Assembly: GCA_035533755.1 (NCBI GenBank)
Contig: DATLTC010000062.1
Coordinates: forward strand, 15,181 to 79,180
DNA: 64,000 bases
DNA from: Gemmatimonadaceae bacterium
GTDB taxonomy: Bacteria; Gemmatimonadota; Gemmatimonadetes; Gemmatimonadales; Gemmatimonadaceae
Reading direction: 5' to 3'
The position numbers and the translations under genes are program-made. Below the pieces are notes generated by a model. That model had not been told where the DNA came from, ran no database searches, and was given only the letters and a program-made list of their open reading frames with translations. Of this stretch, positions 6,486 to 18,877 are shown piece by piece. Positions within the stretch are counted from its first letter, which is position 1. The number at the start of each line of letters is the position of its first letter.

Positions 6486-7286
6486 CTATCGCCCCTCTTC
6501 CAGGAGGTGGTCCACCGGGCATCCGAGCGCGGTGCGGACGGTGACCGCGAGTTCGCGATTGGTCGCGATTGCGCTTCCGCCAAAGTTCGTCGGGCTCCCG
6601 TTCCAGTCCGAAAACACTCCGCCGGCTTCGGTGATGATCGGAATGAATGGCGCCGCGTCCCATGGCGAGAGCACGGGATCGACCATGACCTCGGCCCGTC
6701 CGGTGGCAACCATGAGATACCCGAAGCAGTCGCCCCAACTTCTCGCAAGCGCCGCGTGCTCGGCGAGGGCGCGCCACCGGGCACGGCGCTCGACATGTTC
6801 CGAGAACCGTTCGTCGGTGGTGAGCACCGTGGCTTCCGCGAGGAGGCTCACGGAGGAAACGCGGCAACGGACGCCGTTCCACCAAGCCCCCTCGCCGCGC
6901 GAGGCAGCGACGAGTTCGTCGATGACCGGAAAGTACGCCGCGCCGGCAAGCACCGTGGTGCCTTCGTAGACGGCGATCAGCGTTCCCCACAGCGGGACCC
7001 CGCGAATGAACGACTTCGTACCATCGATGGGATCGACGATCCAGTGCCGTGCAGCGGAGTGACGTTCCTCGCCCAACTCCTCACCAACAATCCCGTCGGT
7101 GGGAAAGCGGTGGGTAATCCAATCGCGCGCCGCGCGCTCGGCGCCACGGTCGGCGACGGTGACGGGCGAGCCGTCGGCCTTGGTCTCCGCCACGAGGTCG
7201 GTGCGAAAATGCGCCAGCGCGACCGATCCGGCGATGCGGGCCACGTCGACGACGGCCTCGAGGAGCAACGACGCGGGCGAGGTCAC
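6486..7286 (-). CDS. hisN: inositol-monophosphatase-family histidinol-phosphatase
   Basis: IMPase motifs 'VADRGAE', 'WIVDPIDGTKSFIRG' and 'WDAAP'. Embedded in the his operon. The GTG start overlaps the hisF stop (GTGA). Confidence 0.8.
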   Translation of the reverse strand: MTSPASLLLEAVVDVARIAGSVALAHFRTDLVAETKADGSPVTVADRGAERAARDWITHRFPTDGIVGEELGEERHSAARHWIVDPIDGTKSFIRGVPLWGTLIAVYEGTTVLAGAAYFPVIDELVAASRGEGAWWNGVRCRVSSVSLLAEATVLTTDERFSEHVERRARWRALAEHAALARSWGDCFGYLMVATGRAEVMVDPVLSPWDAAPFIPIITEAGGVFSDWNGSPTNFGGSAIATNRELAVTVRTALGCPVDHLLEEGR

Positions 7287-8044
7287 GAAATGGCCCTCAC
7301 CGGAAGCGCCGCTGCCGACATGCGCGCCTTGATCTGTGCGACGGTGCAGCGGCCGTCGTGCACGATCCCGGCGACCAACGCCGCGTCGGCGCCGCCGTCT
7401 CGAAGCGCTTCGACCACGTGTTCGGCCGATCCGGCACCGCCGGACGCGACCACGGGAACCGCAACCAGCTCCGCCACGCGGCGCGTGAGCTCGAGGTCGT
7501 ATCCCGCGCCGGAACCGTCGCGGTCGATGCTCGTGAGGAGAATCTCCCCTGCTCCGCAGCGGGCGCAGGTCTCGGCCCACTCCAGTGCGTCCAGTTCCGT
7601 AGCGCGCGAGCCCCCGTGCGTGTACACGCGCCACCCGGAACCTTCCTGACGAGCGTCGATGCTCGCGACCACACACTGCGCGCCAAAGCGATCGGCCGCG
7701 TCGGCGAGCAGTTGGGGATTCGCCACCGCGGCACTGTTGATGCTCACCTTGTCGGCGCCCGAGCGCAGGGCGCTACCGATATCGCTCACGGAACGGATCC
7801 CGCCGCCCACGGTGAGCGGAATGAACAGACGTTCGGCGGTGCGGCAGACGACCTCGAGGAGGGTGTGCCGATCTTCACGGCTCGCCGAGATGTCGAGAAA
7901 GACAATCTCGTCCGCACCGTCGCGCTCATACTGTTGCGCCAGGAGCACGGGATCGCCGATGTCACGCAGAGATTCGAACCCGACGCCCTTGACGACGCGA
8001 TCGCCCCGAACGTCGAGACACACGATGACGCGACGGGTCAACAC
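7283..8044 (-). CDS. hisF: imidazole glycerol phosphate synthase, cyclase subunit
   Basis: 'LTRRVIVCLDVRGDRVVKGV', 'PLTVGGGIRS' and 'VVASGGAG'. GTG start at 8044. The N-terminal extension in the track is rejected. Confidence 0.9.
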   Translation of the reverse strand: MLTRRVIVCLDVRGDRVVKGVGFESLRDIGDPVLLAQQYERDGADEIVFLDISASREDRHTLLEVVCRTAERLFIPLTVGGGIRSVSDIGSALRSGADKVSINSAAVANPQLLADAADRFGAQCVVASIDARQEGSGWRVYTHGGSRATELDALEWAETCARCGAGEILLTSIDRDGSGAGYDLELTRRVAELVAVPVVASGGAGSAEHVVEALRDGGADAALVAGIVHDGRCTVAQIKARMSAAALPVRAIS

Positions 8045-8081
8045 GAGACCCGCCTCACCAACACGGCCGCGGTGCGGCGGG

Positions 8082-8624
8082 TCATTCGGACTCCTCCTGG
8101 GTGAGGACCGCGCCTTTGGTGCTGAACACCCCCTGGTGGCCGGCTTCGCGGAGTGCGTCGCGGAGCGCGAGGCCCAGTGCTTTGAAGGCGGCCTCCACGA
8201 TGTGGTGCCGGTCGCTGCCCCGGAGCACCCTGATGTGCAACGTGCTGCGGGCGTTGTCGCTGAACGAGCGCATCCAGTGCTCATACAACGCGCTGGGCAG
8301 TGGGCCGCGGTAATATGGGCGCCCGCCGAGGTCGATCACACATTGCACGAGGGCGTCGTCCATCGGAATGGTGCGCTCGCCGTACCGGGCGGCGGCAGTC
8401 GGGGTGTAGCCGGCAACGGCCGTGCCAAGGGCAATCGCCACGTCCTCGACCAGGTGGTGCAACAGATCGCCGCGGGCCTGAACGGACAGCGGCAGGCCCG
8501 AGTACCGCGCTAGCGTGTGGAGCATGTGGTCGAGGAACGGCACCCCGGTGGCGATGCTGCCAGCGGGGCCGCCGATCTGCACCTCAACTTCCGTCTCGTT
8601 GGTCTTGCGGCGTATGGTCGTCAT
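8082..8624 (-). CDS. hisB: imidazoleglycerol-phosphate dehydratase (monofunctional)
   Basis: 'RKTNETEVEVQI', 'GVPFLDHMLHTLARY' and 'RHHIVEAAFKALG'. About 180 aa with no phosphatase domain. The ATG overlaps the hisA stop (ATGA). Confidence 0.9.
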   Translation of the reverse strand: MTTIRRKTNETEVEVQIGGPAGSIATGVPFLDHMLHTLARYSGLPLSVQARGDLLHHLVEDVAIALGTAVAGYTPTAAARYGERTIPMDDALVQCVIDLGGRPYYRGPLPSALYEHWMRSFSDNARSTLHIRVLRGSDRHHIVEAAFKALGLALRDALREAGHQGVFSTKGAVLTQEESE

Positions 8625-9334
8625 TCGGCAAACTCCTGAGCCACGGCATAAGGGTCGATCGCACCGGTATAGAGCGCCATGCCGATGACCACGGCGGCGA
8701 CTCCCCGGTGTTCGAGTGCGAACAGATCGTCGCGGCTTCCAACGCCTCCAGAAGCGATGATCGGCACGTCGGTTGCCTCCACGAGATCCTCCATCAGCGA
8801 GAGATCGGGACCGGCCATCTGTCCTTCGCGGTGCACGGCCGTCACGAGCACACCGGCAAGAGGCAGGTGCACGAACTCGGCGAGGACATCGAATACGTCC
8901 ATCGGGTGGGACCGGGTCCAGCCGTGCGTGACGATGCGGCGGTCGCGCACGTCGGCCGCTACGACCACGATCCCCGGATGGGAGATCGCGACGTCGGCCA
9001 GCCAATCGAAGTTCTCGATGGCCCGCGTGCCGAGAATGACGCGGTGCGCCCCGGCGGCGAGAAGATCCTCGATGCGGCTGCGGTGCCGTACGCCGCCGCC
9101 CACCTGCACCTCGGCGTCGGTCTCATCGAGAATCGCTCCGATCACCGACGTGTTATCGCCCACGTCCGTGGCGGCGTCGAGATCAACCACGTGCAATCGG
9201 TGGAATCCGCACTCCGACCACCGGCGCGCGACCGCCACCGGATCGCTCAAGCGCACGCGCTCGTTGGTATAGGATCCGCCGACGAGCTGGACACAGGCCC
9301 CTTCGCGAAGGTCGATCGCGGGAATGGCGATCAT
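8621..9334 (-). CDS. hisA: ProFAR isomerase
   Basis: 'MIAIPAIDLREGACVQLVGG' and 'IIASGGVGS'. The ATG overlaps the hisH stop (ATGA). Confidence 0.9.
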   Translation of the reverse strand: MIAIPAIDLREGACVQLVGGSYTNERVRLSDPVAVARRWSECGFHRLHVVDLDAATDVGDNTSVIGAILDETDAEVQVGGGVRHRSRIEDLLAAGAHRVILGTRAIENFDWLADVAISHPGIVVVAADVRDRRIVTHGWTRSHPMDVFDVLAEFVHLPLAGVLVTAVHREGQMAGPDLSLMEDLVEATDVPIIASGGVGSRDDLFALEHRGVAAVVIGMALYTGAIDPYAVAQEFAE

Positions 9335-9927
9335 GCGCGGGTCGCCTCCAGAAAGTCGTGGAGCATCCGGATACCAGGGGCCGAGCTCTTTTCCGGGTGA
9401 AATTGGACGCCCAATACGCGATGCGTCCGAACGGCAGCGGGAAAGCGATCTCGTTCATGCGTTGTCCACGCGACCACAGACCCCGGGTCCTCGGGGGCGC
9501 AGACGTAACTGTTGGCGTAATACGCGGTGTGGAGCGCCTGCGGGCCCAGCAGCGGGTCCGTGGACGCTTCGATGCTATTCCACCCGATCTGCGGCACCCG
9601 ACCGGCGGACAACCGTCGGACGCCTCCAGCAATGATGCCCAGGCCGAAGCCCGGTCCCTCCGCGCTCTGGTCGAAGAGGAGTTGCATGCCCAGGCAAATC
9701 CCGATGCATGGAAGTCCGGCATTGAGCGCGTCGCGCATGGAGGTCAGTCCTGGAGCGAGACGCGCGGCAGCACTGGCAAAAGCGCCAACTCCCGGCAGCA
9801 CGAGAACGTCGGTCTGGACGACGGCCACCGGATCGGACTCGACATGAATTGTCCTCGCCGGTCCTTCGAGCGCCTTCACGAGCGAGTGAAGATTGCCGGC
9901 TCCATAATCAAACACGGTCACACGCAC
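9331..9927 (-). CDS. hisH: imidazole glycerol phosphate synthase, glutamine amidotransferase subunit
   Basis: 'VTVFDYGAGNLHSL', 'LPGVGAF', 'GICLGMQLL' and 'VQFHPEKS'. The start is GTG at 9927 or GTG at 9921. The latter overlaps the hisC stop as GTGA. Confidence 0.88.
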   Translation of the reverse strand: MRVTVFDYGAGNLHSLVKALEGPARTIHVESDPVAVVQTDVLVLPGVGAFASAAARLAPGLTSMRDALNAGLPCIGICLGMQLLFDQSAEGPGFGLGIIAGGVRRLSAGRVPQIGWNSIEASTDPLLGPQALHTAYYANSYVCAPEDPGSVVAWTTHERDRFPAAVRTHRVLGVQFHPEKSSAPGIRMLHDFLEATRA

Positions 9928-10991
9928 GTGGCGCACTCCTCCTGGAAGGCCGCGGCGAACCGCTCCATCAACGGCCACGGCCCCACAGTGATCCGCAGTG
10001 CCGCGCCCTGTGATGCGGCGAGGGAATCCGTGATCCGCGGAAGACCGGTGAGCACACGAACGGCAAAGCCACGGCGCAGAAGGCGCTGCGCGACGTCGGC
10101 CGCCGCGCGACAGGGCACACACACGAAGTTGGATTCCGACGGAAGCGGCGCGAGTCCCGCTGACCGCAGCACGACACCGAGCCGATCACGGTTCGTGGCG
10201 GCTTCCGCGGCACGATCGCGAACCCACGCCACGTCTCCGGTCACCGCCGCGAGAGCCGCCGCTTCGGCCGCAACGTTCAGCTTGTACGGGCCGCGCACCG
10301 TGGCGAGCGCCTGGGCGAGGGCGGATGCGAGGACGGCATATCCGATGCGAAGCCCCGCGAGGCCGAACGCCTTGGACAGGGTGCGCGTGATGACGACGTG
10401 GTCGTGCTCCTTTACGAGCGAGAAGCCCGGCGCGGCGGTGAACTCGCCGTAGGCCTCGTCGAGGAGCACGACTCCCGGGGCTTCACGCACCACGCGCGCG
10501 ATGGTGGAGAGCGGGAGCGCCGTCCCGGTGGGATTGTTCGGCGAGCAGAGGTAGACGATAGCGGGGCGCGGTGCGAGCAGGGCGTCGACGTCCACATCAA
10601 ATGTGGGCGACAGCGGAACCATGTGCACCCGAAGTCCATTGATCGTGGCGAAGACCGGGACCATCGAGAACGTCGGGACCGCCATGGCGATCATGTCGCC
10701 CGGTTCGGCAAACGCGCGCATCGCACAGTCGATGAGGTCATCGGAACCGCATCCGGTCACGATCATGTCTGGGCTCACGCCCGCGTAGCGGCCCAGCGCC
10801 TCGTTCAATGCGGTGGGCGGCGTGGTTGGGTATCGCGACAATGCCGCCGCCTGCAAGTTCCCGATCGCGGCAAGCGCGAGCGGGGGCGTGCCCCAGAGAT
10901 TGGTGTTGTCGCTCAGGTCCACCGCATTCGCGGCGTCGGTCGCGGTGTATGGACGAAGGCCCGCCAGCGTCTTGCGCACAGGACTCGGCAT
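9918..10991 (-). CDS. hisC: histidinol-phosphate aminotransferase
   Basis: 357 aa of class-II aminotransferase. 'LCSPNNPTG' and 'TLSKAFGLAGLRIGY' (PLP lysine). Confidence 0.9.
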   Translation of the reverse strand: MPSPVRKTLAGLRPYTATDAANAVDLSDNTNLWGTPPLALAAIGNLQAAALSRYPTTPPTALNEALGRYAGVSPDMIVTGCGSDDLIDCAMRAFAEPGDMIAMAVPTFSMVPVFATINGLRVHMVPLSPTFDVDVDALLAPRPAIVYLCSPNNPTGTALPLSTIARVVREAPGVVLLDEAYGEFTAAPGFSLVKEHDHVVITRTLSKAFGLAGLRIGYAVLASALAQALATVRGPYKLNVAAEAAALAAVTGDVAWVRDRAAEAATNRDRLGVVLRSAGLAPLPSESNFVCVPCRAAADVAQRLLRRGFAVRVLTGLPRITDSLAASQGAALRITVGPWPLMERFAAAFQEECATCV

Positions 10992-12311
10992 TCAGCGCTC
11001 CCTCACCCAGGCCCGGGCGGCGGCGGCGTGGCCGTACAAGCCTTCGGCTTGGGCGAACACATCGACGTCGACCGCCAGGCGCGCGGCGGCGTCCGGCGTC
11101 ACCGACTGGTACGTGGTCCAGCGGAAGAAGTCGAGCACAGACAGTCCCGAATACGAGCGAGCAAGTCCGCCCGTGGGGAGCACGTGGTTGGCGCCGGTCA
11201 TGTAGTCCCCGAACGAGACGGACGCGGATTCCCCGAGAAACACGGTGCCGGCGTTGCGGATGCCGGAGAGCACGTGGTCGGGCTGGCCGGCGCAAACGAG
11301 CAGGTGCTCCGGCGCGTACGCGTTGGCCCATCGTACCGCATCCTGGATCGTGTTGGTCCAGAGAATGGCCCCCTGGCCGGCCAGCGCCTGGGCAATGACC
11401 TCGCGGCGCCGCGCCAACGGAACGAGGAGGCCGAGCGCCTCACGGAGCCGCGCCGCAAACGCCTCGCCCTCCACGACGGCAACCACACACGCGCGCGGAT
11501 CATGCTCCGCCTGCGCGACCAGCTCTCGGGCCACGACGTCGGGTGAGGCGTGGGCGTCGGCGATCACCAGGAGCTCGCTCGGGCCGGCGGGCGAATCAAT
11601 ACCGACCACCCCGGAGACCTGGAGCTTGGCCTCGGCGACGAAGGCGTTGCCCGGGCCGACGATGCGATCCACCCCGGGAACCGTCTCGGTTCCGAAAGCC
11701 ATCGCGGCTACGGCGCCGGCGCCGCCGAGCGCGAACACCCGATCCACCTGCGCGATCCTCGCCGCCGCGAGCACCACGGGCATGGGAAGTCCGCCCGGAC
11801 CGGGTGGCGAGCAGAGCACGACCTGCCCTACTCCGGCCACACGGGCCGGGACGGCGCCCATCAATACGCTGCTCGGGTAAGTGGCGCGCCCTCCCGGGGC
11901 GTATACGCCCACGCAGGCGAGTGGGTCGGGGCGGCGTCCGACGAGGATGCCGGGCTCCGGAACGACTTCGGCGATCGAGGGGAGGAAGGCGCGTTGCACC
12001 GTGGCGATGTTGCGCGCCGCGCGTTCCATCGCGTTGCGCAGGCCGGCATCGAGTCCGTCGAGTGCCGCGTCCCATCGAGCGACCGGGACCTCGAATTCCT
12101 CGAGCGTGACCCCGTCAAACCGTGCCGCGAGTTCGCGGAGCGCGACATCACCGCGACGGCGAACATCGGCGACAATCTCCGCGGTGGCGCGGCGCACGTC
12201 GTCGTCGCCCGACGTGGTGCGATCGAGCAGCGCACGGCGCTGTGACGCGTCGAGCCCGGCGAGGGGGCCGAAGAATCGCAGAGCAGGTTGATCCGACGCG
12301 GCACCGGTCAT
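10992..12311 (-). CDS. hisD: histidinol dehydrogenase
   Basis: 439 aa. 'AGPSELLVIAD', 'QAEHDP' and 'GDYMTGANHVLPT'. Abuts hisC with no gap. Confidence 0.9.
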   Translation of the reverse strand: MTGAASDQPALRFFGPLAGLDASQRRALLDRTTSGDDDVRRATAEIVADVRRRGDVALRELAARFDGVTLEEFEVPVARWDAALDGLDAGLRNAMERAARNIATVQRAFLPSIAEVVPEPGILVGRRPDPLACVGVYAPGGRATYPSSVLMGAVPARVAGVGQVVLCSPPGPGGLPMPVVLAAARIAQVDRVFALGGAGAVAAMAFGTETVPGVDRIVGPGNAFVAEAKLQVSGVVGIDSPAGPSELLVIADAHASPDVVARELVAQAEHDPRACVVAVVEGEAFAARLREALGLLVPLARRREVIAQALAGQGAILWTNTIQDAVRWANAYAPEHLLVCAGQPDHVLSGIRNAGTVFLGESASVSFGDYMTGANHVLPTGGLARSYSGLSVLDFFRWTTYQSVTPDAAARLAVDVDVFAQAEGLYGHAAAARAWVRER

Positions 12312-13174
12312 GCCATGAGCCTCTCGATGCGCGTGATGAGAATGCCTTCCGCGCCCAGCGCCTTGAGCCGCGCGATGGTGCGATATACCCCGGCGGCTGG
12401 AACGACCGCGTGCACGGCGACCATGGTGCCTCCGTTGAGAATGTCGATCACCGTAGGACCGTTGAGGCCAGGCATGACCTCACGAACCCGCGGCATCTGA
12501 TCGCGCGGCACGTTGGCCATCAGATAGCGTTGGCTGCGCGCCCGGAGCACCGACAGCAGGGCGGCCGCGAGCTCCTCCACCGCTTGATGCTGGACCTCGT
12601 CGAGGTGCGAGGCGTCATCGGCGACGATGAGGCGCGCCGTGGATTCGAGCACCGTGGCGACCTCGCGGAGGCCGTTGACGCGCAGCGTGGATCCTGTGGA
12701 GACGAGATCCACGATCACGTCGGCAATGCCGATGTGGGGAGCGATCTCGGCGGCGCCAGAAATCGGGACGACCTCGACCGCGCGGTCGTTCTCGGCGAAG
12801 AAGGCCGCCGTGATCCGAGGGAACGTGGTGGCAACCCGCGTCCCACTCGGCACGTCGGCAACGCGCTGGATCCCGCTGTCCTCACGGGCCGCGACCGCCA
12901 GTCGACACCGGCCGAACTCGAGGTCGGCCACCACCCGGACCGGGCGCCCCGACTCGCGGACGAGATCCCACCCGGTCACGCCGGCGTCGGCCGCGCCATC
13001 GGCGACAAACTCCGGAATGTCCTGGGCGCGCACGAACAGCGCCTGGAACTCTCCACCCAACGACGCCGTGAGAGCCCGGTCACCGCGAGCCCGAATTTCG
13101 AGACCCGCATCGCGGAACAGATCCCGCGCCTCGTCGGCCAGCCGTCCCTTGTTGGGCAGCGCAATCTTCAACAT
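12308..13174 (-). CDS. hisG: ATP phosphoribosyltransferase, long form
   Basis: 'MLKIALPNKGRL' and 'DLVSTGSTLRVNGL', plus the C-terminal regulatory domain. ATG at 13174 is preceded by AAGGGA. The track start at 13180 is a TTG two codons upstream. Confidence 0.9.
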   Translation of the reverse strand: MLKIALPNKGRLADEARDLFRDAGLEIRARGDRALTASLGGEFQALFVRAQDIPEFVADGAADAGVTGWDLVRESGRPVRVVADLEFGRCRLAVAAREDSGIQRVADVPSGTRVATTFPRITAAFFAENDRAVEVVPISGAAEIAPHIGIADVIVDLVSTGSTLRVNGLREVATVLESTARLIVADDASHLDEVQHQAVEELAAALLSVLRARSQRYLMANVPRDQMPRVREVMPGLNGPTVIDILNGGTMVAVHAVVPAAGVYRTIARLKALGAEGILITRIERLMA

Positions 13175-13189
13175 GAGCAATCCCTTGGA

Positions 13190-13224
13190 GATAAAAAGAA
13201 AGGCCCGTCAGCGGGTGACGGGCC
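13190..13224 (-). terminator. intrinsic terminator (attenuator) in the hisG leader
   Basis: On the minus strand: GGCCCGTCA-cccgc-TGACGGGCC (a perfect 9-bp stem) followed by TTTCTTTTTAT. It ends about 10 nt before the hisG RBS. Confidence 0.75.
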
Positions 13225-13255
13225 AGCAGGAGCAAGCGAGGGACGGTCTGAACTC

Positions 13256-13336
13256 CTATCCGCGCACGCGTGCCCTACCCCGGCCCGTGATGCCGTGGTG
13301 ATGGTGCGTGTCGTGGTGGGTGCGGATGGTCGCCAT
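13256..13336 (-). CDS. hisL: his operon leader peptide (26 aa, MATIRTHHDTHHHHGITGRGRARVRG)
   Basis: Read directly from the reverse complement: ATG at 13336, TAG at 13258-13256, six His codons within codons 7-14. It sits between a candidate promoter and the terminator upstream of hisG. Confidence 0.7.
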   Translation of the reverse strand: MATIRTHHDTHHHHGITGRGRARVRG

Positions 13337-13345
13337 CGTGCGATG

Positions 13346-13375
13346 AACTTAGCGGTCCCCGGCCGGCGTCGTCAA
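13346..13375 (-). promoter_or_regulatory. candidate sigma70-type promoter for the his leader
   Basis: Minus strand: TTGACG (13375-13370), 18-nt spacer, TAAGTT (13351-13346). The predicted TSS is only about 3 nt before the leader ATG, so the transcript would be near-leaderless. There is no SD. Confidence 0.4.
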
Positions 13376-13496
13376 CTCCCCGTATTGCCGACGGCGATTC
13401 ACGTCCTCGGCCGCGCGTCCATTGCCCGAGACTACCACGGTACCGGCGCGACTGACTAGGATGCAGTGACCGCCACCGGTAAAGACTTCCGCCCGC

Positions 13497-13925
13497 ATGT
13501 TTGCCGACGACCTCCTCCGCGCCGAACAGATGCACCTCTTTCGCCTGCTAGTATGGGGTGGATCGAGCGTGCTCGCCGGCACCCTGATCTTCGTGGCGCT
13601 CGCGTGGCGCCGTCCCGGAGCGACGATCCTGAGGCACTTCGCGATGCAGACGATCGTCTGGGGCGTGCTCGAAATCGCGTACGTGGCGGTGACCTGGCAC
13701 GGCGTGCGGATGCGCGATCTCGCCGGCGCGACACGCCTGGACCGGCTGCTCTGGTTCAACCTCGGCCTCGACGTTGGCGTGGTGGCGGTGGGAGCGGCCA
13801 TCGGGCTGCTCGGGTGGGCGCACGATCGCCGACTGAATCTCACGGGCACGGGGATCGGCGTCGTCCTGCAGGGCGCTGCCCTGTTCCTGATCAATGCGCA
13901 GCTCGTGTCTGCGATTTCGCGCTGA
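13497..13925 (+). CDS. small integral membrane protein (about 4 TM), unknown function
   Basis: 142-aa ORF with four clear hydrophobic segments. The next gene starts 2 nt after its stop. Confidence 0.6.
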   Translation: MFADDLLRAEQMHLFRLLVWGGSSVLAGTLIFVALAWRRPGATILRHFAMQTIVWGVLEIAYVAVTWHGVRMRDLAGATRLDRLLWFNLGLDVGVVAVGAAIGLLGWAHDRRLNLTGTGIGVVLQGAALFLINAQLVSAISR

Positions 13926-13927
13926 CG

Positions 13928-14443
13928 ATGTCGGAGATCACCCTCGACCTTCGCGGACGGCCCAAGGCCGAAGCGTATGAGACGCTGCAGCAGCACGTCA
14001 CCGCCGTGCTCGACGGTGTGGATGACGAGATCGCCGCCATGGCGACGATGAGCTGTCTGATCCACCATGCGTTCGGATACCTGTGGACCGGATTCTACCG
14101 GGTGGCGGAGCCCGGGCGCTTGTTGCGGGTAGGGCCCTATCAGGGCACGCTGGGATGCTTGGAGATCGCGTTCGGCCGCGGCGTCTGCGGAACGGCCGCC
14201 GCGCGAAAGGAGACGATCGTGGTGCCGAACGTGGAGGAGTTCCCCGGTCACATTGCCTGTGACGCGCAGGCCAAGTCGGAAATCGTCGTGCCGGTGCTGG
14301 ATGCCAGGGGCGAGCTGCGCGCAGTGCTCGACGTGGACGCGGTGCGCGTGGGCGCTTTCGATGCGGCCGACCGAGACGGACTGGAGCGACTGGTTGCCTG
14401 GTTTGCGGCGGCTCGCCCCGGCGCGGGTCCCCGGCTAGGTTAG
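13928..14443 (+). CDS. msrC: GAF-domain free methionine-(R)-sulfoxide reductase
   Basis: 'GFYRV..LRVGPYQGTLGCLEIAFGRGVCGTAA..PGHIACDAQAKSEIVVPV' closely follows E. coli YebR/MsrC. Confidence 0.85.
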   Translation: MSEITLDLRGRPKAEAYETLQQHVTAVLDGVDDEIAAMATMSCLIHHAFGYLWTGFYRVAEPGRLLRVGPYQGTLGCLEIAFGRGVCGTAAARKETIVVPNVEEFPGHIACDAQAKSEIVVPVLDARGELRAVLDVDAVRVGAFDAADRDGLERLVAWFAAARPGAGPRLG

Positions 14444-14444
14444 A

Positions 14445-15113
14445 GTGGAGATCGAGGCGCTTCTCCAGGACATGGCCGGCATGATGGTTCACGGGTATTC
14501 CGATCGCATCAACCATGCGCTTGCCTTCGCGGCCAAGCACAACGACCGGCAGGTCCGGAAGGGCACGCGGCTGCCGTACGGCACGCATGGGGCCAACATC
14601 GCCGTCATCCTGACTCGCTATGGCCAGGACGAGAGCACGATCGTCGCGGGAATCCTGCACGACGTGGTCGAGGACTGCATTCGCGAGCGCTACACGCGCG
14701 ACATGCTGGAGCAGCGCATTGGCGACAAATTCGGCCCCGAGGCGCTGGGCAAAGCGACCGCAGCGGCCGAACGCATCCTGGACGATGATGGCGTGGAGTT
14801 GTCGCACCAGGAGCGGAAGGACGACTACCTGACGCGCCTGGCGCAGGCGCCCGACGGAGCGCGGTGGGTGGCTGCCGCCGAGGCCATCCACAATGCGAGC
14901 ACCATCCTCGCCGACCTCAAACGCACCATTGATCCGGACTCGGTGTGGGGGCGGTTCCACTGGGGAAAGGACGGAACCATTCGATGGTATCGGCGGCTGT
15001 ACGAGCGGCTGCGGGACCAGGGGTTCGAGGCGCCGATCATGCACGAGCTCGGCCAGGTGGTGGAAGCCCTCGAACGGCAGAGCGAAATCCACACGTCGAC
15101 GAGTCGCATCTGA
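14445..15113 (+). CDS. HD-domain phosphohydrolase (RelA/SpoT-hydrolase-like)
   Basis: 'H...AGILHDVVED' HD motif. The start is GTG at 14445 or ATG at 14472. Confidence 0.7.
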   Translation: MEIEALLQDMAGMMVHGYSDRINHALAFAAKHNDRQVRKGTRLPYGTHGANIAVILTRYGQDESTIVAGILHDVVEDCIRERYTRDMLEQRIGDKFGPEALGKATAAAERILDDDGVELSHQERKDDYLTRLAQAPDGARWVAAAEAIHNASTILADLKRTIDPDSVWGRFHWGKDGTIRWYRRLYERLRDQGFEAPIMHELGQVVEALERQSEIHTSTSRI

Positions 15114-15141
15114 CCCCTGCAGTCGCCGACGATGGCAGGGG
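15114..15141. terminator. hairpin between the convergent HD gene and ispG
   Basis: CCCCTGC-N14-GCAGGGG lies in the 34-nt gap between convergent stops. No U-tract. Confidence 0.3.
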
Positions 15142-15147
15142 CGCGAC

Positions 15148-16395
15148 TCAGGTCAGGCCGGCGGGCGTTCCGGGATAGGTCCGTTCGACGTAGGCGTCGA
15201 GCATGGCGAGAAACTCCTGCACGATGTGGTCGCCGCGTAGCGTGCAGACCAGCTGGCCGTCGACGTACACCGGAGCCTTCGGATCTTCGAACGTGCCGGG
15301 CAACGAGATCCCGATGTTGGCGTGCTTGGATTCTCCGGGACCGTTCACGACGCACCCCATCACCGCAACTTTCATCTCTTCGACCCCGGGATGCCGGTCG
15401 CGCCACAGCGGCATCTGCTCGCGGATGTAGCCCTGAATGTCCTCGGCCAAGTGTTGGAAGAACGTCGAGGTGGTGCGGCCGCAGCCCGGACAGGCCGTGA
15501 CCTGCGGGGAGAAGCTGCGCAGGCCGAGGGACTGGAGAATTTGCTGGGCAACCAGGACCTCTTCGGTACGGTCGCCGTTGGGCTTGGGGGTGAGCGACAC
15601 GCGAATGGTATCGCCGATCCCCTCCGCGAGCAGGATGGACAGCCCCGCCGTGCTGGCCACGATGCCCTTGGTGCCCATGCCGGCTTCGGTCAACCCGAGG
15701 TGCAGGGGATAGTCGCAACGATCGGCGAGGAGCCGATACACCGTGACGAGGTCCTGAACCCCCGACACCTTGGCCGAGATAATGATGTGGTCGTGTGCCA
15801 TCCCGACCTCTTCGGCCAACGTCGCGGACCGGAGCGCACTGGCCAGCATGGCCTCGATGTACACGTCCTTGGCGTCACGTGGGATTGCCAGGCCGGCGTT
15901 CTCGTCCATCATCTGGGTGAGCAGGTCCTGGTCGAGCGATCCCCAGTTGACTCCGATGCGGACCGGCTTGTCGTGGTCGACGGCGATCTGCACGATCGTG
16001 CGGAAGTTCTCGTCGCGCCGCTTGCCGCCGACGTTTCCCGGATTGATGCGGTACTTCGCGAGCGCCGCGGCGCAGTCTGGGTACTTCGCGAGCAGGAGAT
16101 GGCCGTTGTAGTGGAAATCTCCCACGATCGGCACATCCACCCCGTCGTCGGCAACGCGGCGGGCAATGTCGGACACCGCGCGCGCGGCTTCATCGTTGTT
16201 GACGGTAATGCGCACGAGCTGGGATCCGGCGCGGGCCAGCGCGACGACCTGTGCCGCCGTGGCGGATGCGTCTGCGGTGTCCGTGTTTGTCATCGACTGG
16301 ACCACCACGGGGTGATCGGATCCCACCGCTACCCGACCAACCCAGGTTGTGACGGTCCGTCTGCGACTGGCAAGGCTCACGGAGTCTCCGGACAA
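15148..16395 (-). CDS. ispG: 4-hydroxy-3-methylbut-2-en-1-yl diphosphate synthase
   Basis: '[15 protein letters not shown]', 'VRITVNN' and 'ACPGCGRT'. The start is TTG at 16395 or GTG at 16380. Confidence 0.9.
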
Positions 16396-16517
16396 GGTGA
16401 ATCTGAAAATACTCGGTCCATGCGTGACGTCAGAAGGCTCGGAACGTGGGGATTGAGGGACGCAACCGCCCCGCCCTACCGGACTCAGCAGCCATCATAA
16501 ACCGCCTCAATCCGGTA

Positions 16518-16546
16518 TTGACCGACCATAGGGGGTACACTACCTT
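16518..16546 (+). promoter_or_regulatory. candidate promoter for the cold-shock gene
   Basis: TTGACC (16518-16523), 17 nt, TACCTT (16541-16546). This implies a 5' UTR of about 135 nt containing the hairpin GAGCCAAG-N10-CTTGGCTC (16557-16582). Confidence 0.35.
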
Positions 16547-16686
16547 TGCCCCCGCTGAGCCAAGGCCTCAGGGTCTTGGCTCAGAGCATATTAGCCCCGC
16601 AGCGCTCAGGCGGTCTGCGGAATCAGGGATTGTCGGGGTACGGCGCATTCCGCTCCCTAGACAATGGGTATTTTCAGGAGTGGGAC

Positions 16687-16899
16687 ATGCGTACGACAGG
16701 CAAGGTGAAGTGGTTCAACGACGCGAAGGGCTTCGGCTTCATCACTCCGGACAGCGGCGAGAAGGACTGCTTCGTCCACTACAGTTCGATCCAGGGCAAC
16801 GGGTTCAAGACCCTTGCTGAAGGCGAAGCCGTCGAGTTCGATGTCGTGCAGGGCGCCAAGGGCCCCGCGGCAGAGAACGTGTCTCGCCTGGCCCAGTAA
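16687..16899 (+). CDS. cspA: cold-shock protein (CspA family)
   Basis: '[15 protein letters not shown]' (RNP1) and 'CFVHYS' (RNP2). 70 aa. Confidence 0.92.
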
Positions 16900-16919
16900 C
16901 AGGGCGGGCCCGTGACGAT

Positions 16920-16953
16920 GAGCCGGGGGATCCCCAACGGGATCTCCCGGCTC
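16920..16953. terminator. hairpin terminator between csp and the convergent gene
   Basis: GAGCCGGGGGATCCC-caac-GGGATCTCCCGGCTC (15-bp stem with one G-U pair) followed by GTTTGT. Confidence 0.55.
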
Positions 16954-16961
16954 GTTTGTCA

Positions 16962-17363
16962 TCAAGTCTCACGCGTCTCGTGCCGATCTGCCTGTCGGGG
17001 CGGGCGTCCGCGTCGCGGCCGAGCCACGGACTCGGCTGCCTGAAGAAGGCGTTGCTGAACGTGCCGGGTGTGGGTGTCGAGATCGATTGCCAGCCGTATA
17101 CCGCCTATCAGCGCAATCTCCCCGCCGTGGCCTTCGCGCAAATGGATTGCCAGGTCCACGGCACGTCGAACCGGGAGCCCGAGCTCGGCGACCAGTAAAC
17201 GGGTCAGATCGAGCAGGACGATGGCCTCGAACGAGAATCCTCTTTCGACACCTCGCGCGCGAGACGTCACCCCAGGGATCGTATAGTGGGAGACAACATT
17301 GTCTATCCACTTACGGGATGATGAGATAGCGATGGATGCGGTGGAGATATCGTACGAACGCAT
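16962..17363 (-). CDS. hypothetical protein, possibly an HTH (MerR-like pattern) DNA-binding protein
   Basis: 133-aa ORF with protein-like composition. The N-terminal 'YDISTASIAISSSRKWIDNVVSHYTIPGV...RGFSFEAIVLLDLTRLL' loosely follows a MerR-type HTH plus wing. The C-terminus is basic ('RPRRGRPPR'). Palindromic operators lie directly upstream. Confidence 0.45.
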   Translation of the reverse strand: MRSYDISTASIAISSSRKWIDNVVSHYTIPGVTSRARGVERGFSFEAIVLLDLTRLLVAELGLPVRRAVDLAIHLREGHGGEIALIGGIRLAIDLDTHTRHVQQRLLQAAESVARPRRGRPPRQADRHETRET

Positions 17364-17365
17364 AA

Positions 17366-17387
17366 TTATCCTTAAATACTAGGATAA
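17366..17387. promoter_or_regulatory. palindromic operator IR1 (TTATCCTT-N6-TAGGATAA)
   Basis: 8-bp arms with one mismatch. It overlaps the candidate -10 TAGTAT (17381-17376, minus strand) of the promoter TCGACA(17404-17399)-17 nt-TAGTAT for the 16962..17363 gene. Confidence 0.5.
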
Positions 17388-17410
17388 ATTGCTGCGATTG
17401 TCGATATCTG

Positions 17411-17440
17411 GTAATATTCCTAATTTTATAGGAATATTAC
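17411..17440. promoter_or_regulatory. perfect 12-bp inverted repeat IR2 (GTAATATTCCTA-atttta-TAGGAATATTAC)
   Basis: Read directly. It lies in a stretch of about 80 bp of AT-rich DNA between the argH stop and the next gene, just upstream of the candidate -35. Confidence 0.55.
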
Positions 17441-17473
17441 ACCGCCCATGCTGTTCTTTCGCCCGTGAGATGT

Positions 17474-18877
17474 CTAGCGCACAGATTCTCTGGCTGCCTT
17501 GATCTGGGCACGTACGGCAACCGGTCCCGTTCCCCCTTCCACCTCGCGATGCTGAACGGACCGCTCGGGAGACAGTGCGAGGAGGACGTCCTCCCCGAAC
17601 AGAGGATGGGCGGCGGCGAACGACGTGACTGGGAGGGCGTCGAGTTCCCTGCCCTGCGACTCCGCTTCGCGCACGAGATGTCCGACGGCGCCGTGCGCTT
17701 CTCGAAACGTGGCCCCTTTGCGCACGAGGTAGTCCGCGAGATCGGTGGCCATGAGACCACTCGATAGCGCTGCCCGCATGCGATCGACGCGGAAGCTCAA
17801 CTCCGCGAGGCTACCCGAAAATGCTGGTAGCACCAACAGCATCGTGTCGACGGCGTCGAACAGCACGCGTTTGTCGTCCTGGAGATCCTTGTTGTAGCTG
17901 CTGGGCAGGCCCTTGATGGTCGCGAGAAGCGCCGTGAGGTCGCCGAGGAGACGAGCAGCGCTGCCGCGCGCGATTTCCAGTGCGTCGGGATTGCGCTTCT
18001 GCGGCATCATGCTGGAGCCGGAAGAGAACCGCTCCCCGAACTGGACGAATCCGAACTCGCCCGTGCCGTAGATGATGAGGTCCTCGGCAAACCGGGACAG
18101 ATGCGCCGCAAGAAGCGCGGTGGCGAACAGCATCTCGGCGACAAAGTCGCGATCGCTCACGGCGTCGATCGAGTTGGGCGAGATCGCATCGAAGCCGAGC
18201 GTCCCTTGGAGGAGCGTGCGCGAAATGGGATATGCGCACCCGGCGACGGCACCGGCGCCCAGAGGCAAGACGGCGGCCGAACGGGCCGCGGCGCGGAGGC
18301 GGGCGCGGTCGCGGTCGAGGGGCCAGAAATGCGCGAGCAGCCAGTGCGCCGCGGAGATGGGCTGCGCGCGCTGCATGTGCGTGTACGCGGGCATGAGGAC
18401 CGCCTCGACTTCGACCGCGCGATCGAGAATCACGCGCTGGAAGTCCCGCACGGCCGCATCGAGATGCGCGGCGGCGTCCATCGTCCACAGGCGTGTTGCC
18501 GTGGCCACCTGGTCATTGCGGCTCCGTCCGGTGTGCAGCTTGGAAGCCACCTCACCGACTTCCTCGTGGAGCAGCCGGTCGATCATGGTGTGGATGTCCT
18601 CGTCGCCCGGAGCCGGCGGCTCACCGGCTCCGATACGCCGGGCCACGGCGTCGAGGCCGGCCTCGAGCGTCCGGCTCTCGTCCAGCGAGAGCACGTTCGC
18701 GCTCCACAGCGCCACGGCCCACGCTTTGGACAGCTGGATATCGAACGGCCAGAGGCGGAAATCGACGCCGATGGAATTGTTCAGGGCATCGAATGCCGGC
18801 GCGGGACCGCCGCCGAACCGACCACCCCATAGCTTGTGCGTCTTGGAGGCTCCAGCCGGCGGCGGACGGTCGGTCAC
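17474..18877 (-). CDS. argH: argininosuccinate lyase
   Basis: '[11 protein letters not shown]', '[11 protein letters not shown]' and '[12 protein letters not shown]'. The GTG start overlaps the argG stop (GTGA). Confidence 0.92.

What the first reader, a model, noticed from the sequence alone, without database searches (positions are those of the whole stretch)
13181..13375. His-codon leader peptide plus intrinsic terminator directly upstream of hisG: a hisL-type attenuator
The minus strand from 13336 to 13256 reads ATG GCG ACC ATC CGC ACC CAC CAC GAC ACG CAC CAT CAC CAC GGC ATC ACG GGC CGG GGT AGG GCA CGC GTG CGC GGA TAG. This encodes MATIRTHHDTHHHHGITGRGRARVRG, with 6 His in 8 consecutive codons. 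It is too short to appear in the ORF track.

About 30 nt after its stop lies a perfect 9-bp GC hairpin, GGCCCGTCA-cccgc-TGACGGGCC. It is followed by TTTCTTTTTAT and ends about 10 nt before the hisG RBS and ATG. T-runs are very rare in this DNA. No upstream minus-strand gene exists that this terminator could serve, since the next gene (13497) is divergent.

TCACGGGCCGG (13290-13280, just after the His codons) is complementary to CTGGCCCGTCA, the 5' arm of the terminator, at 10 of 11 positions including one G-U pair. This offers a candidate antiterminator pairing. It would be free when a ribosome stalls on the early His codons and covered when translation runs through.

Ribosome-mediated his attenuation is textbook for enterobacteria. 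Whether it has been described for this lineage cannot be decided from the sequence.
Basis: partly seen in the sequence, partly recalled or inferred. Interest (0 to 1): 0.75.

Follow-up and report, generated by a model that had tools for sequence, protein, structure and literature searches.

The report
Histidine-sensing leader-peptide attenuator before hisG
A 26-codon, histidine-rich mini-gene followed by a transcription stop signal sits just before the histidine-biosynthesis operon and very probably switches the operon on when histidine runs short; this is the textbook E. coli mechanism, found here as a separate RNA family in Gemmatimonadota and Myxococcia.

Summary
On the minus strand, ORF 13336-13256 has 6 His in 8 codons. 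A 9-bp GC hairpin plus U-tract follows at 13224-13191, and hisG starts at 13174.

Neither feature looks like chance. This is the only His-dense stretch in six frames of the 64 kb, and the only T-rich tract on either strand.

- All 79 usable HisG-relative loci (58 Gemmatimonadota, 22 Myxococcia in the aligned set) carry a His-rich mini-ORF upstream of hisG, and nearly all also carry the same terminator.
- Two exclusive folds are conserved. One is a protector (His-codon helix plus 1:2 hairpin) with the terminator.
- Region 2 is read in three different frames across the family, so the RNA is conserved rather than the peptide.
- A covariance model built without the window finds it at 82.8 bits.

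It is not a member of Rfam His_leader (RF00514), and I found no description for these phyla.

The leader AUG lies 5-10 nt after a conserved -10 box, which predicts a leaderless mRNA.

Verdict: a new lineage-specific family of a textbook mechanism. Interest is moderate.

The parts
13370..13375 (-). Predicted -35 hexamer TTGACG of the leader/his-operon promoter
   Evidence: Sequence. TTGACN, then 17/18 nt, then TANNNT is conserved at the same position in about 50 of 58 Gemmatimonadota loci. No transcription start site (TSS) data.
13346..13351 (-). Predicted -10 hexamer TAAGTT. The leader ATG starts 9 nt after it, with no Shine-Dalgarno (SD) sequence, so the mRNA is predicted to be leaderless or to have a 5' UTR of at most 3 nt
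   Evidence: The distance from the -10 hexamer to the start codon is 5-10 nt in nearly all of the ~50 loci where the scan found the promoter, and the start codon is ATG in nearly all of them. This is inferred from geometry only.
13256..13336 (-). Leader ORF, 26 codons plus UAG: MATIRTHHDTHHHHGITGRGRARVRG
   Evidence: There is no match to Pfam or NCBIfam families at E<=10. The exact peptide is absent from the 15-billion-protein collection.
13295..13318 (-). Regulatory His codons: His7-8 at 13318-13313 and His11-14 at 13306-13295
   Evidence: The His run is in frame in all 79 loci. It ends 5-6 nt before the region 2 core in 54 loci.
13306..13310 (-). 5' strand (CACGC) of the outer 'protector' helix, lying inside the His-codon block. 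It pairs with 13269-13265
   Evidence: Minimum-free-energy (MFE) fold of the free RNA. The equivalent helix is 83.5% paired, with 6 of 7 pairs compensated, in 58 leaders. It is strongly conserved in Myxococcia.
13265..13269 (-). 3' strand (GCGUG) of the outer protector helix, within codons Arg-Val
13292..13298 (-). Region 1 (CC-A-CGGC: the last His codon plus the Gly codon). It pairs with 13284-13279 to sequester region 2
   Evidence: RNAalifold finds this helix on its own. It is 95.3% paired in 58 leaders. In the window the hairpin is -9.3 kcal/mol.
13279..13289 (-). Region 2 (CACGGGCCGGG). It either pairs with region 1 or forms the antiterminator with region 3. The core is ACGGGCC at 13288-13282
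   Evidence: The same nucleotides are read in three different frames across the family.
13216..13230 (-). Region 3: the terminator 5' arm GGCCCGUCA (13224-13216) plus the CCUGCU extension (13230-13225), which pairs with 13279-13274 in the antiterminator
13202..13210 (-). Region 4: terminator 3' arm UGACGGGCC
   Evidence: The hairpin is -18.1 kcal/mol. The terminator helix is 98.9% paired, with 4 compensated pairs, in 58 leaders.
13191..13201 (-). Terminator U-tract UUUCUUUUUAU
   Evidence: It is the only site in the window with at least 9 T in 11 nt.
13194..13324 (-). Extent of the match to covariance model R1, which was built from 50 other Gemmatimonadota leaders
   Evidence: 82.8 bits, E about 6e-16. 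It is the only significant hit in the 64 kb.
12308..13186 (-). hisG (RBS 13186-13181, ATG 13174; long-form ATP phosphoribosyltransferase, 288 aa). It is the first gene of the regulated operon hisG-D-C-H-A-B-F-N-IE, which runs to 5877

Best explanation
This is a ribosome-mediated (leader-peptide) transcription attenuator. It makes expression of the nine-gene his operon (hisG-D-C-H-A-B-F-N-IE) depend on the supply of charged tRNA-His.

**Start of the transcript.** Transcription starts at a sigma-70-like promoter (-35 at 13375-13370, -10 at 13351-13346). The resulting mRNA begins at, or within about 3 nt of, the leader AUG (13336). The 26-codon leader carries His at codons 7, 8 and 11-14.

**The four pairing regions.**
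- Region 1: 13298-13292, the last His codon plus the Gly codon
- Region 2: 13289-13279
- Region 3: 13230-13216
- Region 4: 13210-13202, followed by a U-tract

**His plentiful, or no translation.** The ribosome runs past the His codons and over region 2 to the UAG. That stop codon lies between regions 2 and 3, at the apex of the antiterminator fold. Region 2 is therefore covered, or re-captured by region 1, and this is reinforced by an outer helix between the His-codon block and the Arg-Val codons. Region 3 then pairs with region 4. RNA polymerase stops at about 13191, 17 nt before the hisG AUG.

**His-tRNA scarce.** The ribosome stalls in the His run, best with His11 or His12 in the A-site, where it covers about 13321-13293. 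This masks the outer helix and region 1 but leaves region 2 exposed. Region 2 captures region 3 as it emerges, through a 7-bp core ACGGGCC/GGCCCGU plus extensions. The terminator cannot form and the operon is transcribed.

**Shown here:** the elements, their conservation, and the mutual exclusivity of the two folds.

**Inferred:** the transcription start, translation of the leader, the kinetics, and the response to histidine.
For: **Anatomy and context**
- The anatomy is as described.
- hisG and a complete his operon lie immediately downstream.

**Not chance**
- This is the only His-dense stretch in the window and the only T-rich tract.

**Conservation**
- A His-rich 22-31-codon ORF is present within 400 nt upstream of hisG in 79 of 79 loci with enough upstream DNA, in two phyla.
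- A terminator stem GGCCCGUCC/GGACGGGCC plus U-run is present in nearly all of them.

**Termination-state fold**
- RNAalifold recovers the 1:2 hairpin and the terminator on its own.
- The termination-state structure is 93.2% paired, with 13 compensated pairs. No shuffle of 500 reaches this, and slid controls give 24-49%.

**Antiterminator fold**
- It is 86.3% paired, against 33-55% for slid controls. The covariation score is reached by 1 of 500 shuffles.

**RNA, not peptide**
- The His run is always in frame, but region 2 nucleotides are read in three frames. The RNA is constrained, not the peptide.
- The gap from the last His codon to region 2 is 5-6 nt in 54 loci.

**Ribosome-position simulations**
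- In the window at equilibrium, the fold flips to the antiterminator only with the A-site on His11 or His12. With no ribosome, or with a ribosome at the stop codon, the terminator forms.
- On nascent RNA lacking region 4, region 3 is captured by region 2 in 77 of 78 loci for ribosome positions up to about the penultimate His. Capture is blocked once the ribosome has passed the run.
- In the window, stalling at His11 favours the antiterminator by 17.7 kcal/mol on the nascent chain. The untranslated growing chain keeps region 2 in the 1:2 hairpin, except in a narrow window before region 4 appears.

**Cross-validation**
- Covariance model R1, built without the window, finds it at 82.8 bits.
Against: - There is no experimental evidence of any kind: no TSS, no terminated transcript, no ribosome footprint and no histidine response.
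- With the complete terminator present, equilibrium folding gives the terminator whatever the ribosome position in 62 of 78 loci. The switch therefore has to be kinetic.
- On nascent RNA at equilibrium, 2:3 also forms without any ribosome in 37 of 78 loci, and with a ribosome at the stop codon in 41 of 78. Termination under His sufficiency thus rests on two untested arguments. One is a kinetic trap: the 1:2 hairpin and outer helix form first. The other is steric: a ribosome sits inside the would-be antiterminator loop.
- Covariation in the antiterminator is modest, with 3 compensated pairs. In Myxococcia it is absent because the core is invariant.
- The folding energy of the whole leader is not unusual (z = -1.15).
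Confidence: 0.85

Rival explanations
1. The His-rich ORF encodes a functional micropeptide, for example a metal-binding His-rich peptide co-expressed with the his genes, and the hairpin is an ordinary leaky terminator unrelated to its translation.
For: The ORF, its length and parts of its C-terminal sequence (TGRG...ARVxG) look conserved at the peptide level in many Gemmatimonadota.
Against: - The conserved 'peptide' motif coincides with RNA pairing regions.
- The same nucleotides are read in frame 0 (TGRG), frame 2 (SRAGA/LRVGA) and frame 1 (PDG) in different lineages.
- The leader does not match any peptide family.
- The alternative pairings 1:2, 2:3 and 3:4 are conserved.
- The ORF is tied to hisG in 79 of 79 loci.
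Confidence: 0.03
2. The terminator/antiterminator switch is real but is set by something other than ribosome stalling: a T-box-like uncharged-tRNA contact, a histidine riboswitch, or an RNA-binding protein. On this view the His codons are incidental.
For: Other lineages do regulate his genes by T-boxes or by the HisR repressor (PMC9413887). The equilibrium simulations alone do not prove that the ribosome controls the switch.
Against: - There is no T-box or riboswitch hit, even at E<=10.
- The leader is short, about 130 nt, with no conserved unpaired ligand-pocket-like core.
- A His run is maintained in frame with a start and a stop codon in every locus, at a fixed 5-6 nt from region 2, while the flanking peptide sequence drifts or shifts frame. 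This is hard to explain without translation.
Confidence: 0.05
3. The leader ORF acts mainly through Rho or polarity, or at the level of translation, rather than through the intrinsic terminator. The hairpin would serve only as a structural or processing element.
For: Leaderless sensory sORFs in mycobacteria act by RBS sequestration rather than by termination (bioRxiv 10.1101/834739). How efficient intrinsic terminators are in Gemmatimonadota is unknown.
Against: - The 9-12-bp GC stem is followed by a U-run in essentially every locus. In the window, this is the only U-rich tract in 64 kb of 67.7% GC DNA.
- The hisG RBS is unpaired in the predicted folds.
- The terminator lies 22-107 nt upstream of hisG in relatives, too variable a distance for RBS sequestration.
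Confidence: 0.05

Closest known systems
Enterobacterial his operon leader (hisL; Rfam RF00514 His_leader)
   Same: - A short ORF rich in His codons lies directly upstream of hisG.
- An intrinsic terminator lies between the leader and hisG.
- Alternative RNA pairings are selected by a ribosome stalling at His codons.
- It controls a hisG-hisD-hisC... operon.
   Different: - It is not homologous by test. RF00514 scores the E. coli control at 131.6 bits, but gives no hit in the window and at best 30.3 bits (gathering score 49) in 8 family loci.
- The reverse model R1 gives E. coli only 23.1 bits, against 59-91 bits for family members.
- HisG is 33% identical to the E. coli protein.
- The peptide has 26 codons with an interrupted His run (HH..HHHH) rather than 16 codons with 7 consecutive His (E. 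coli ORF size; its His run: textbook knowledge).
- The ORF continues about 10 codons beyond region 2, so the stop codon lies between regions 2 and 3.
- The layout has four regions plus an outer helix, rather than the six-segment A-F scheme (the latter from textbook knowledge).
- The start is predicted to be leaderless rather than SD-led.
E. coli trp operon leader (trpL), the classic 1:2 / 2:3 / 3:4 attenuator (textbook knowledge, not tested here)
   Same: - The four-region logic is the same: region 1 overlaps or abuts the regulatory codons, 1:2 is the protector, 2:3 the antiterminator and 3:4 the terminator.
- Termination is the default without translation.
   Different: - It senses a different amino acid and has no sequence relationship.
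- In trpL the stop codon lies just before region 2, so a ribosome at the stop covers region 2 (textbook knowledge). Here region 2 lies inside the ORF, about 30 nt before the stop.
Candidate His-leader attenuators in Firmicutes: the Bacillus cereus group, Peptostreptococcaceae and Erysipelotrichales (PMC9413887), and hisS/hisZ paralogs in bacilli (PMC2965389)
   Same: - They are lineage-specific his attenuators predicted by computation.
- They have 3-5 or more His codons plus terminator and antiterminator hairpins.
- They do not match RF00514.
   Different: They come from different phyla and are presumably independent RNA families. I did not compare the sequences. Neither a leaderless start nor a cross-phylum distribution is reported for them.
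Leaderless polycysteine sORF attenuators of mycobacteria (bioRxiv 10.1101/834739)
   Same: A sensory short ORF sits at the very 5' end of a leaderless polycistronic mRNA. A run of codons for the pathway's own amino acid senses its supply through ribosome stalling.
   Different: [quoted passage not shown] Here a canonical intrinsic terminator is the output. The leaderless start is shown there but only inferred here.

Membership tests
Leader-peptide (ribosome-mediated) transcription attenuators, general class | A short upstream ORF with clustered codons for the amino acid made by the downstream operon | tested here: met
   There are 6 His in 8 codons upstream of hisG. This is unique in the window and conserved in 79 of 79 loci.
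Leader-peptide (ribosome-mediated) transcription attenuators, general class | An intrinsic terminator between the leader ORF and the first structural gene | tested here: met
   A 9-bp GC stem plus UUUCUUUUUAU, at -18.1 kcal/mol. The helix is 98.9% paired with 4 compensated pairs in 58 leaders.
Leader-peptide (ribosome-mediated) transcription attenuators, general class | An antiterminator pairing that is mutually exclusive with the terminator | tested here: met
   Region 2 (13289-13279) pairs with region 3 (13230-13216). The pairing is 86.3% paired, against 33-55% for slid controls, and sits at a fixed register. In the window the duplex is -19.1 kcal/mol.
Leader-peptide (ribosome-mediated) transcription attenuators, general class | A protector (anti-antiterminator) pairing that involves the regulatory-codon region, so that a stalled ribosome disrupts it | tested here: met
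   The 1:2 hairpin is found by RNAalifold. The outer helix uses the His-codon block as its 5' strand, in both Gemmatimonadota and Myxococcia.
Leader-peptide (ribosome-mediated) transcription attenuators, general class | The ribosome's position decides the fold: stalling at the cognate codons gives the antiterminator, and running through gives the terminator | tested here: inconclusive
   Only in silico tests were possible.
- The window flips at His11 or His12 only.
- On nascent RNA, 77 of 78 loci allow 2:3 up to the penultimate His and block it just after.
- At full-length equilibrium only 16 of 78 loci flip.
- At equilibrium, 2:3 is also allowed with a ribosome at the stop codon in 41 of 78 loci.

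The outcome therefore depends on kinetic and steric arguments.
Leader-peptide (ribosome-mediated) transcription attenuators, general class | Read-through rises when the cognate charged tRNA is limiting | not testable with these tools
   This needs in vivo starvation, reporter or Term-seq experiments.
Rfam RF00514 His_leader (gamma-proteobacterial hisL leader) | A covariance-model score at or above the gathering threshold of 49 bits | tested here: not met
   There is no RF00514 hit in window 12900-13800 at E<=10. The best hit among 8 family loci is 30.3 bits. The E. coli positive control scores 131.6 bits.
Rfam RF00514 His_leader (gamma-proteobacterial hisL leader) | A leader peptide recognised by the curated hisL peptide models in Pfam or NCBIfam | tested here: not met
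   Three family peptides return no family at E<=10 in either library.
T-box leader (tRNA-sensing; used for his genes in Firmicutes and Actinobacteria) | A match to the T-box covariance model (specifier loop and T-box sequence) | tested here: not met
   There is no T-box hit at E<=10 in window 12900-13800.
Leaderless sensory sORF attenuators (mycobacterial poly-Cys type) | The sORF start codon lies at the 5' end of the transcript | tested here: inconclusive
   A conserved TTGACN, 17/18 nt, TANNNT promoter has its -10 hexamer ending 5-10 nt before the ATG in nearly all of the ~50 of 58 loci where it is found, with no SD. No TSS data are available.
Leaderless sensory sORF attenuators (mycobacterial poly-Cys type) | The output is sequestration of the downstream gene's ribosome-binding site | tested here: not met
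   The hisG RBS is unpaired in the predicted folds. The output element is a hairpin plus U-tract, 22-107 nt upstream of hisG in relatives.
New RNA family defined here (model R1: Gemmatimonadota/Myxococcia His leader) | A significant match to a covariance model built without the window or its close relatives | tested here: met
   Window 13194-13324(-) scores 82.8 bits, E about 6e-16. Typical Myxococcia leaders score 58.7-83.3 bits. E. coli hisL scores 23.1 bits.

The most novel reading that the evidence does not exclude
A single, previously uncatalogued His-leader RNA family is shared by two phyla, Gemmatimonadota and class Myxococcia of Myxococcota. The likely reason is that the whole his operon moved between them together with its cis-regulator. 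In Gemmatimonadota the leader would be translated from a leaderless mRNA. The sensing ribosome, 70S-initiated at the 5'-terminal AUG, would then be loaded as soon as the 5' end emerges from RNA polymerase. This would be a transcription attenuator that needs no Shine-Dalgarno sequence and whose stop codon sits inside the antiterminator loop.
Probability: 0.5. Interest if true: 0.5.

Novelty: new member of a known kind. Interest (0 to 1): 0.4.

Why it matters
Almost nothing is known about gene regulation in Gemmatimonadota. In the literature I could search, leader-peptide attenuation is documented for Proteobacteria (mainly gamma), Actinobacteria and a few Firmicutes (PMC9413887, PMC2965389).

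This element would extend a textbook mechanism to two further phyla. It gives a ready covariance-model seed of about 80 sequences for annotating it, and it flags an unannotated translated sORF.

Because Myxococcus xanthus carries the same family, the prediction can be tested genetically.

The predicted leaderless start and the apparent co-transfer of the operon with its cis-regulator bear on two broader questions. One is how attenuators couple translation to transcription without an SD. The other is how such elements spread.

Tried and rejected
- **Whole-leader folding energy.** It is not unusual against shuffles (z = -1.15). This says little about a bistable element.
- **Weak Rfam hits.** The hits in the region (mir-3204, CRISPR-DR28, suhB/mmgR, beta-proteobacterial toxic sRNA; E 0.6-8) are noise, or reflect only the hairpin plus U-tract.
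- **Full-length equilibrium stall simulation.** It flips to the antiterminator in only 16 of 78 loci, so I do not use it as a test of the mechanism. The nascent-chain version is more relevant but leaves the caveats stated above.
- **Myxococcia antiterminator.** No covariation can be measured because the 6-bp core is invariant.
- **Literature.** Searches for this lineage found nothing. The 26-genome ncRNA survey (PMC8632094) includes neither phylum.
- **Peptide look-ups.** Exact look-up of six leader peptides found none in the protein collection.
- **Phyletic range.** I could not extend it. The single genome-collection scan returned only the best 80 of at least 376 HisG relatives. All 80 are at least 67% identical, so the range beyond these two phyla is unknown.
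- **Rejected readings.** I rejected a terminator serving an upstream gene, because the neighbours are divergent. I also rejected a chance ORF.
Full report
**1. The observation**

- A 26-codon ORF (13336-13256) encodes MATIRTHHDTHHHHGITGRGRARVRG.
- 31 nt after its stop codon comes the hairpin GGCCCGUCA-CCCGC-UGACGGGCC (13224-13202).
- The tract UUUCUUUUUAU follows at 13201-13191.
- An RBS (AAGGGA, 13186-13181) and the hisG ATG (13174) come next.

The consensus scan finds this hairpin as the only minus-strand terminator-like site in 8000-18000.

None of this is chance.
- The leader is the only place in all six frames of the 64 kb with at least 5 His in 8 codons. About 0.005 sites with at least 6 of 8 are expected.
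- The DNA is 67.7% GC, and the U-tract is the only site on either strand with at least 9 T in 11 nt.
- The terminator motif is unique in the window.

The downstream gene is a long-form HisG. It heads a contiguous, complete operon, hisG-D-C-H-A-B-F-N-IE, running from 13174 to 5877. The upstream ORFs with domain hits are on the + strand, so they are divergent. The terminator therefore cannot serve an upstream gene.

**2. Relatives**

The 80 best HisG relatives among species-representative genomes are 67-86% identical to the window's HisG. They come from Gemmatimonadota, the window's lineage, and from Myxococcia: Myxococcus, Corallococcus, Pyxidicoccus, Archangium, Cystobacter and Hyalangium.

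In every one of the 79 loci with enough upstream DNA, a short ORF of 22-31 codons with 4-7 His in 8 codons lies within 400 nt upstream of hisG. Nearly all are followed by the same terminator stem, GGCCCGUCC/GGACGGGCC, and a U-run.

A segment ACGGG(C/U)CGG lies at a fixed register: about 32 nt before the leader stop in Gemmatimonadota and about 40 nt in Myxococcia. It complements the terminator's 5' arm.

**3. Structure**

I aligned 58 Gemmatimonadota leaders (A1). RNAalifold returns two helices on its own.
- One is the terminator.
- The other is a hairpin pairing the last His and Gly codons (CC-CGGCC) with GGGUCG-GG. This is a classical region 1:2 that sequesters region 2.

By eye I found a third helix. 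The middle of the His run (CAYGYGC, the 'H-A/V-H' codons) pairs with the 'A-R-V' codons (GCRCGUG). In Myxococcia RNAalifold itself finds the equivalent helix, CCA-CAUGCG with CGCAUG-UGG.

| Fold | Cells paired | Compensated pairs | Shuffles reaching it | Slid controls |
|---|---|---|---|---|
| Termination state (outer helix + 1:2 + 3:4) | 93.2% | 13 | 0 of 500 | 24-49% |
| Antiterminator 2:3 | 86.3% | 3 | 1 of 500 (covariation score) | 33-55% |

In the antiterminator the central six pairs (columns 65-70) are about 99% paired. In Myxococcia its 6-bp core is invariant, so it is always pairable but gives no information on covariation.

**4. RNA, not peptide**

The apparent conservation of the peptide tail (TGRG...ARVxG) is a by-product of the RNA.
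- Region 2 nucleotides are read in frame 0 in 49 Gemmatimonadota loci (TGRG).
- They are read in frame 2 in 8 loci (SRAGA or LRVGA).
- They are read as Pro-Asp-Gly in Myxococcia.
- The His run is always in frame and ends 5-6 nt before region 2 in 54 loci.

The peptides match no Pfam or NCBIfam family, and the exact sequences are absent from the 15-billion-protein collection.

**5. How it most likely works**

*Free RNA.* Its minimum-free-energy (MFE) fold contains:
- the outer helix, 13310-13306 with 13269-13265
- the 1:2 hairpin, 13298-13292 with 13284-13279, at -9.3 kcal/mol
- the terminator, at -18.1 kcal/mol.

*Ribosome stalled on His11.* With the A-site on His11, the footprint covers about 13321-13293. 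The outer helix and region 1 are masked. Region 2 (ACGGGCC, 13288-13282) pairs with GGCCCGU (13224-13218), extended by GGUAGG/CCUGCU and further pairs. The result is one long imperfect hairpin with the leader stop codon at its apex.

*Simulations.*
- In the window at equilibrium, only stalls at His11 or His12 flip the full-length RNA to the antiterminator. With no ribosome, or a ribosome at the stop codon, the terminator forms.
- Across 78 loci, the very stable terminator wins at full-length equilibrium in most cases. The decision must therefore be kinetic, as in the classical systems.
- On nascent RNA lacking region 4, region 3 is captured by region 2 in 77 of 78 loci for every ribosome position up to about the penultimate His. 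Capture is blocked once the ribosome has moved past the run and covers region 2.

*Caveat.* At equilibrium on the nascent chain, 2:3 also forms without a ribosome in 37 of 78 loci, and with a ribosome at the stop codon in 41 of 78.

In the window's growing chain, region 2 stays in the 1:2 hairpin until the 3' end reaches about 13221. The 2:3 pairing is preferred only in a narrow window before region 4 appears. Termination under histidine sufficiency therefore rests on two unproven inferences:
- a kinetic trap, in which the protector forms first
- a steric effect, in which a ribosome sits inside the would-be antiterminator loop.

**6. Promoter and start**

In about 50 of 58 Gemmatimonadota loci, a conserved TTGACN, 17/18 nt, TANNNT promoter is placed so that the leader start begins 5-10 nt after the -10 hexamer, with no SD. 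The start codon is ATG in nearly all.

In the window the -35 is at 13375-13370, the -10 at 13351-13346 and the ATG at 13336. This geometry predicts a leaderless mRNA, or a 5' UTR of at most 3 nt, for the sensing ORF. I have no TSS data. The simple scan found such a hexamer pair in only one of the 22 Myxococcia loci (L022), and the Myxococcia leaders appear to start with GTG.

**7. Comparison with what is known**

*RF00514.* It works like the enterobacterial hisL attenuator but is not a member of that family.
- RF00514 scores the E. coli control at 131.6 bits. It gives nothing in the window at E<=10 and at most 30.3 bits (gathering score 49) in eight family loci.
- HisG is only 33% identical to E. 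coli HisG.

*Cross-validated model.* Model R1 was built from 50 Gemmatimonadota leaders. It excluded the window, its six closest relatives and all Myxococcia. Its scores are:

| Target | Score |
|---|---|
| Window element | 82.8 bits, E about 6e-16; the only significant hit in 64 kb |
| Typical Myxococcia leaders | 58.7-83.3 bits |
| Two divergent Myxococcia leaders | 39.6 (L076) and 28.6 (L007) bits |
| E. coli hisL | 23.1 bits |

This is therefore one RNA family spanning two phyla, distinct from RF00514.

*Architecture.* The layout is closer to the four-region trp scheme than to the six-segment his scheme (textbook knowledge). It has two peculiarities: region 2 lies inside the ORF, and the stop codon lies between regions 2 and 3.

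*Literature.* The sources I could search place his attenuators in gamma-proteobacteria and, as candidates, in a few Firmicutes (PMC9413887). They place leader peptides in Proteobacteria, Actinobacteria and Firmicutes (PMC2965389). Nothing turned up for Gemmatimonadota or Myxococcia. Leaderless sensory sORFs have a precedent in mycobacteria, where the output is translational (bioRxiv 10.1101/834739).

**8. Verdict**

The element is a new lineage-specific family of a well-known kind of regulator. Its possible twists, a leaderless start and spread between phyla together with the operon, are inferred and not shown. A rough HisG NJ tree nests Myxococcia inside Gemmatimonadota.

I score interest at 0.4, which is moderate. 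The mechanism is textbook, but the family is apparently uncatalogued and can be tested directly in M. xanthus.

Noticed in passing
window 13346-13375 (-) and the equivalent positions in L001-L080: A conserved TTGACN, 17/18 nt, TANNNT promoter lies 5-10 nt before the leader ATG, and no Shine-Dalgarno sequence is present. This is seen in about 50 of 58 Gemmatimonadota loci and predicts that the leader peptide is translated from a leaderless mRNA. The simple scan found such a hexamer pair in only one of the 22 Myxococcia loci (L022), and the Myxococcia leaders appear to start with GTG.
   Followed up: partly
L019-L079 (Myxococcia loci) compared with the Gemmatimonadota loci: The same leader RNA family (R1 scores of 59-83 bits) and HisG proteins 67-73% identical occur in Myxococcia. 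In a rough NJ tree rooted on E. coli, the Myxococcia HisG clade nests inside Gemmatimonadota diversity. This suggests that the his operon moved between the phyla together with its attenuator.
   Followed up: partly
window 5877-13174 (-): The regulated operon encodes the whole pathway in an unusual order, hisG-D-C-H-A-B-F-N-IE. It includes an IMPase-family histidinol-phosphatase, HisN (TIGR02067, 288 bits), rather than a bifunctional HisB.
   Followed up: partly
L076:1047-1191 and L007:2845-2975: Two Myxococcaceae MAG (metagenome-assembled genome) loci have divergent leaders, scoring 39.6 and 28.6 bits against R1. L076 has a His run but no recognisable U-tract terminator. L007 uses a different stem (GGGCCCG...CGGGCCC plus U8), with a matching region 2 (CAUGGGCCC).
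   Followed up: no
A1 columns ~118-137 (for example L016:~965-985), between the leader stop and the terminator: Many Gemmatimonadota leaders carry an extra spacer hairpin, CCCGGCA-nnnn-UGCCGG. The window's own clade (WIN, L001-L006) lacks it, and there the spacer instead extends the antiterminator helix. Its role is not established. It may be a pause hairpin or a branch of the antiterminator multiloop.
   Followed up: no
L081:3018-3147 (E. coli hisL) and L039:865-997: There is reciprocal, sub-threshold cross-detection. R1 scores E. coli hisL at 23.1 bits (rough E of 0.005), and RF00514 scores L039 at 30.3 bits. This probably reflects generic features, namely a CAY run plus a GC hairpin plus a U-run. 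Very remote common ancestry is not excluded.
   Followed up: partly
window 13497-15113 (+): The divergent neighbours of the his promoter are a DUF6992 protein (13497-13925), a GAF-domain ORF and an HD-domain ORF. The 160-nt intergenic region must hold both divergent promoters.
   Followed up: no
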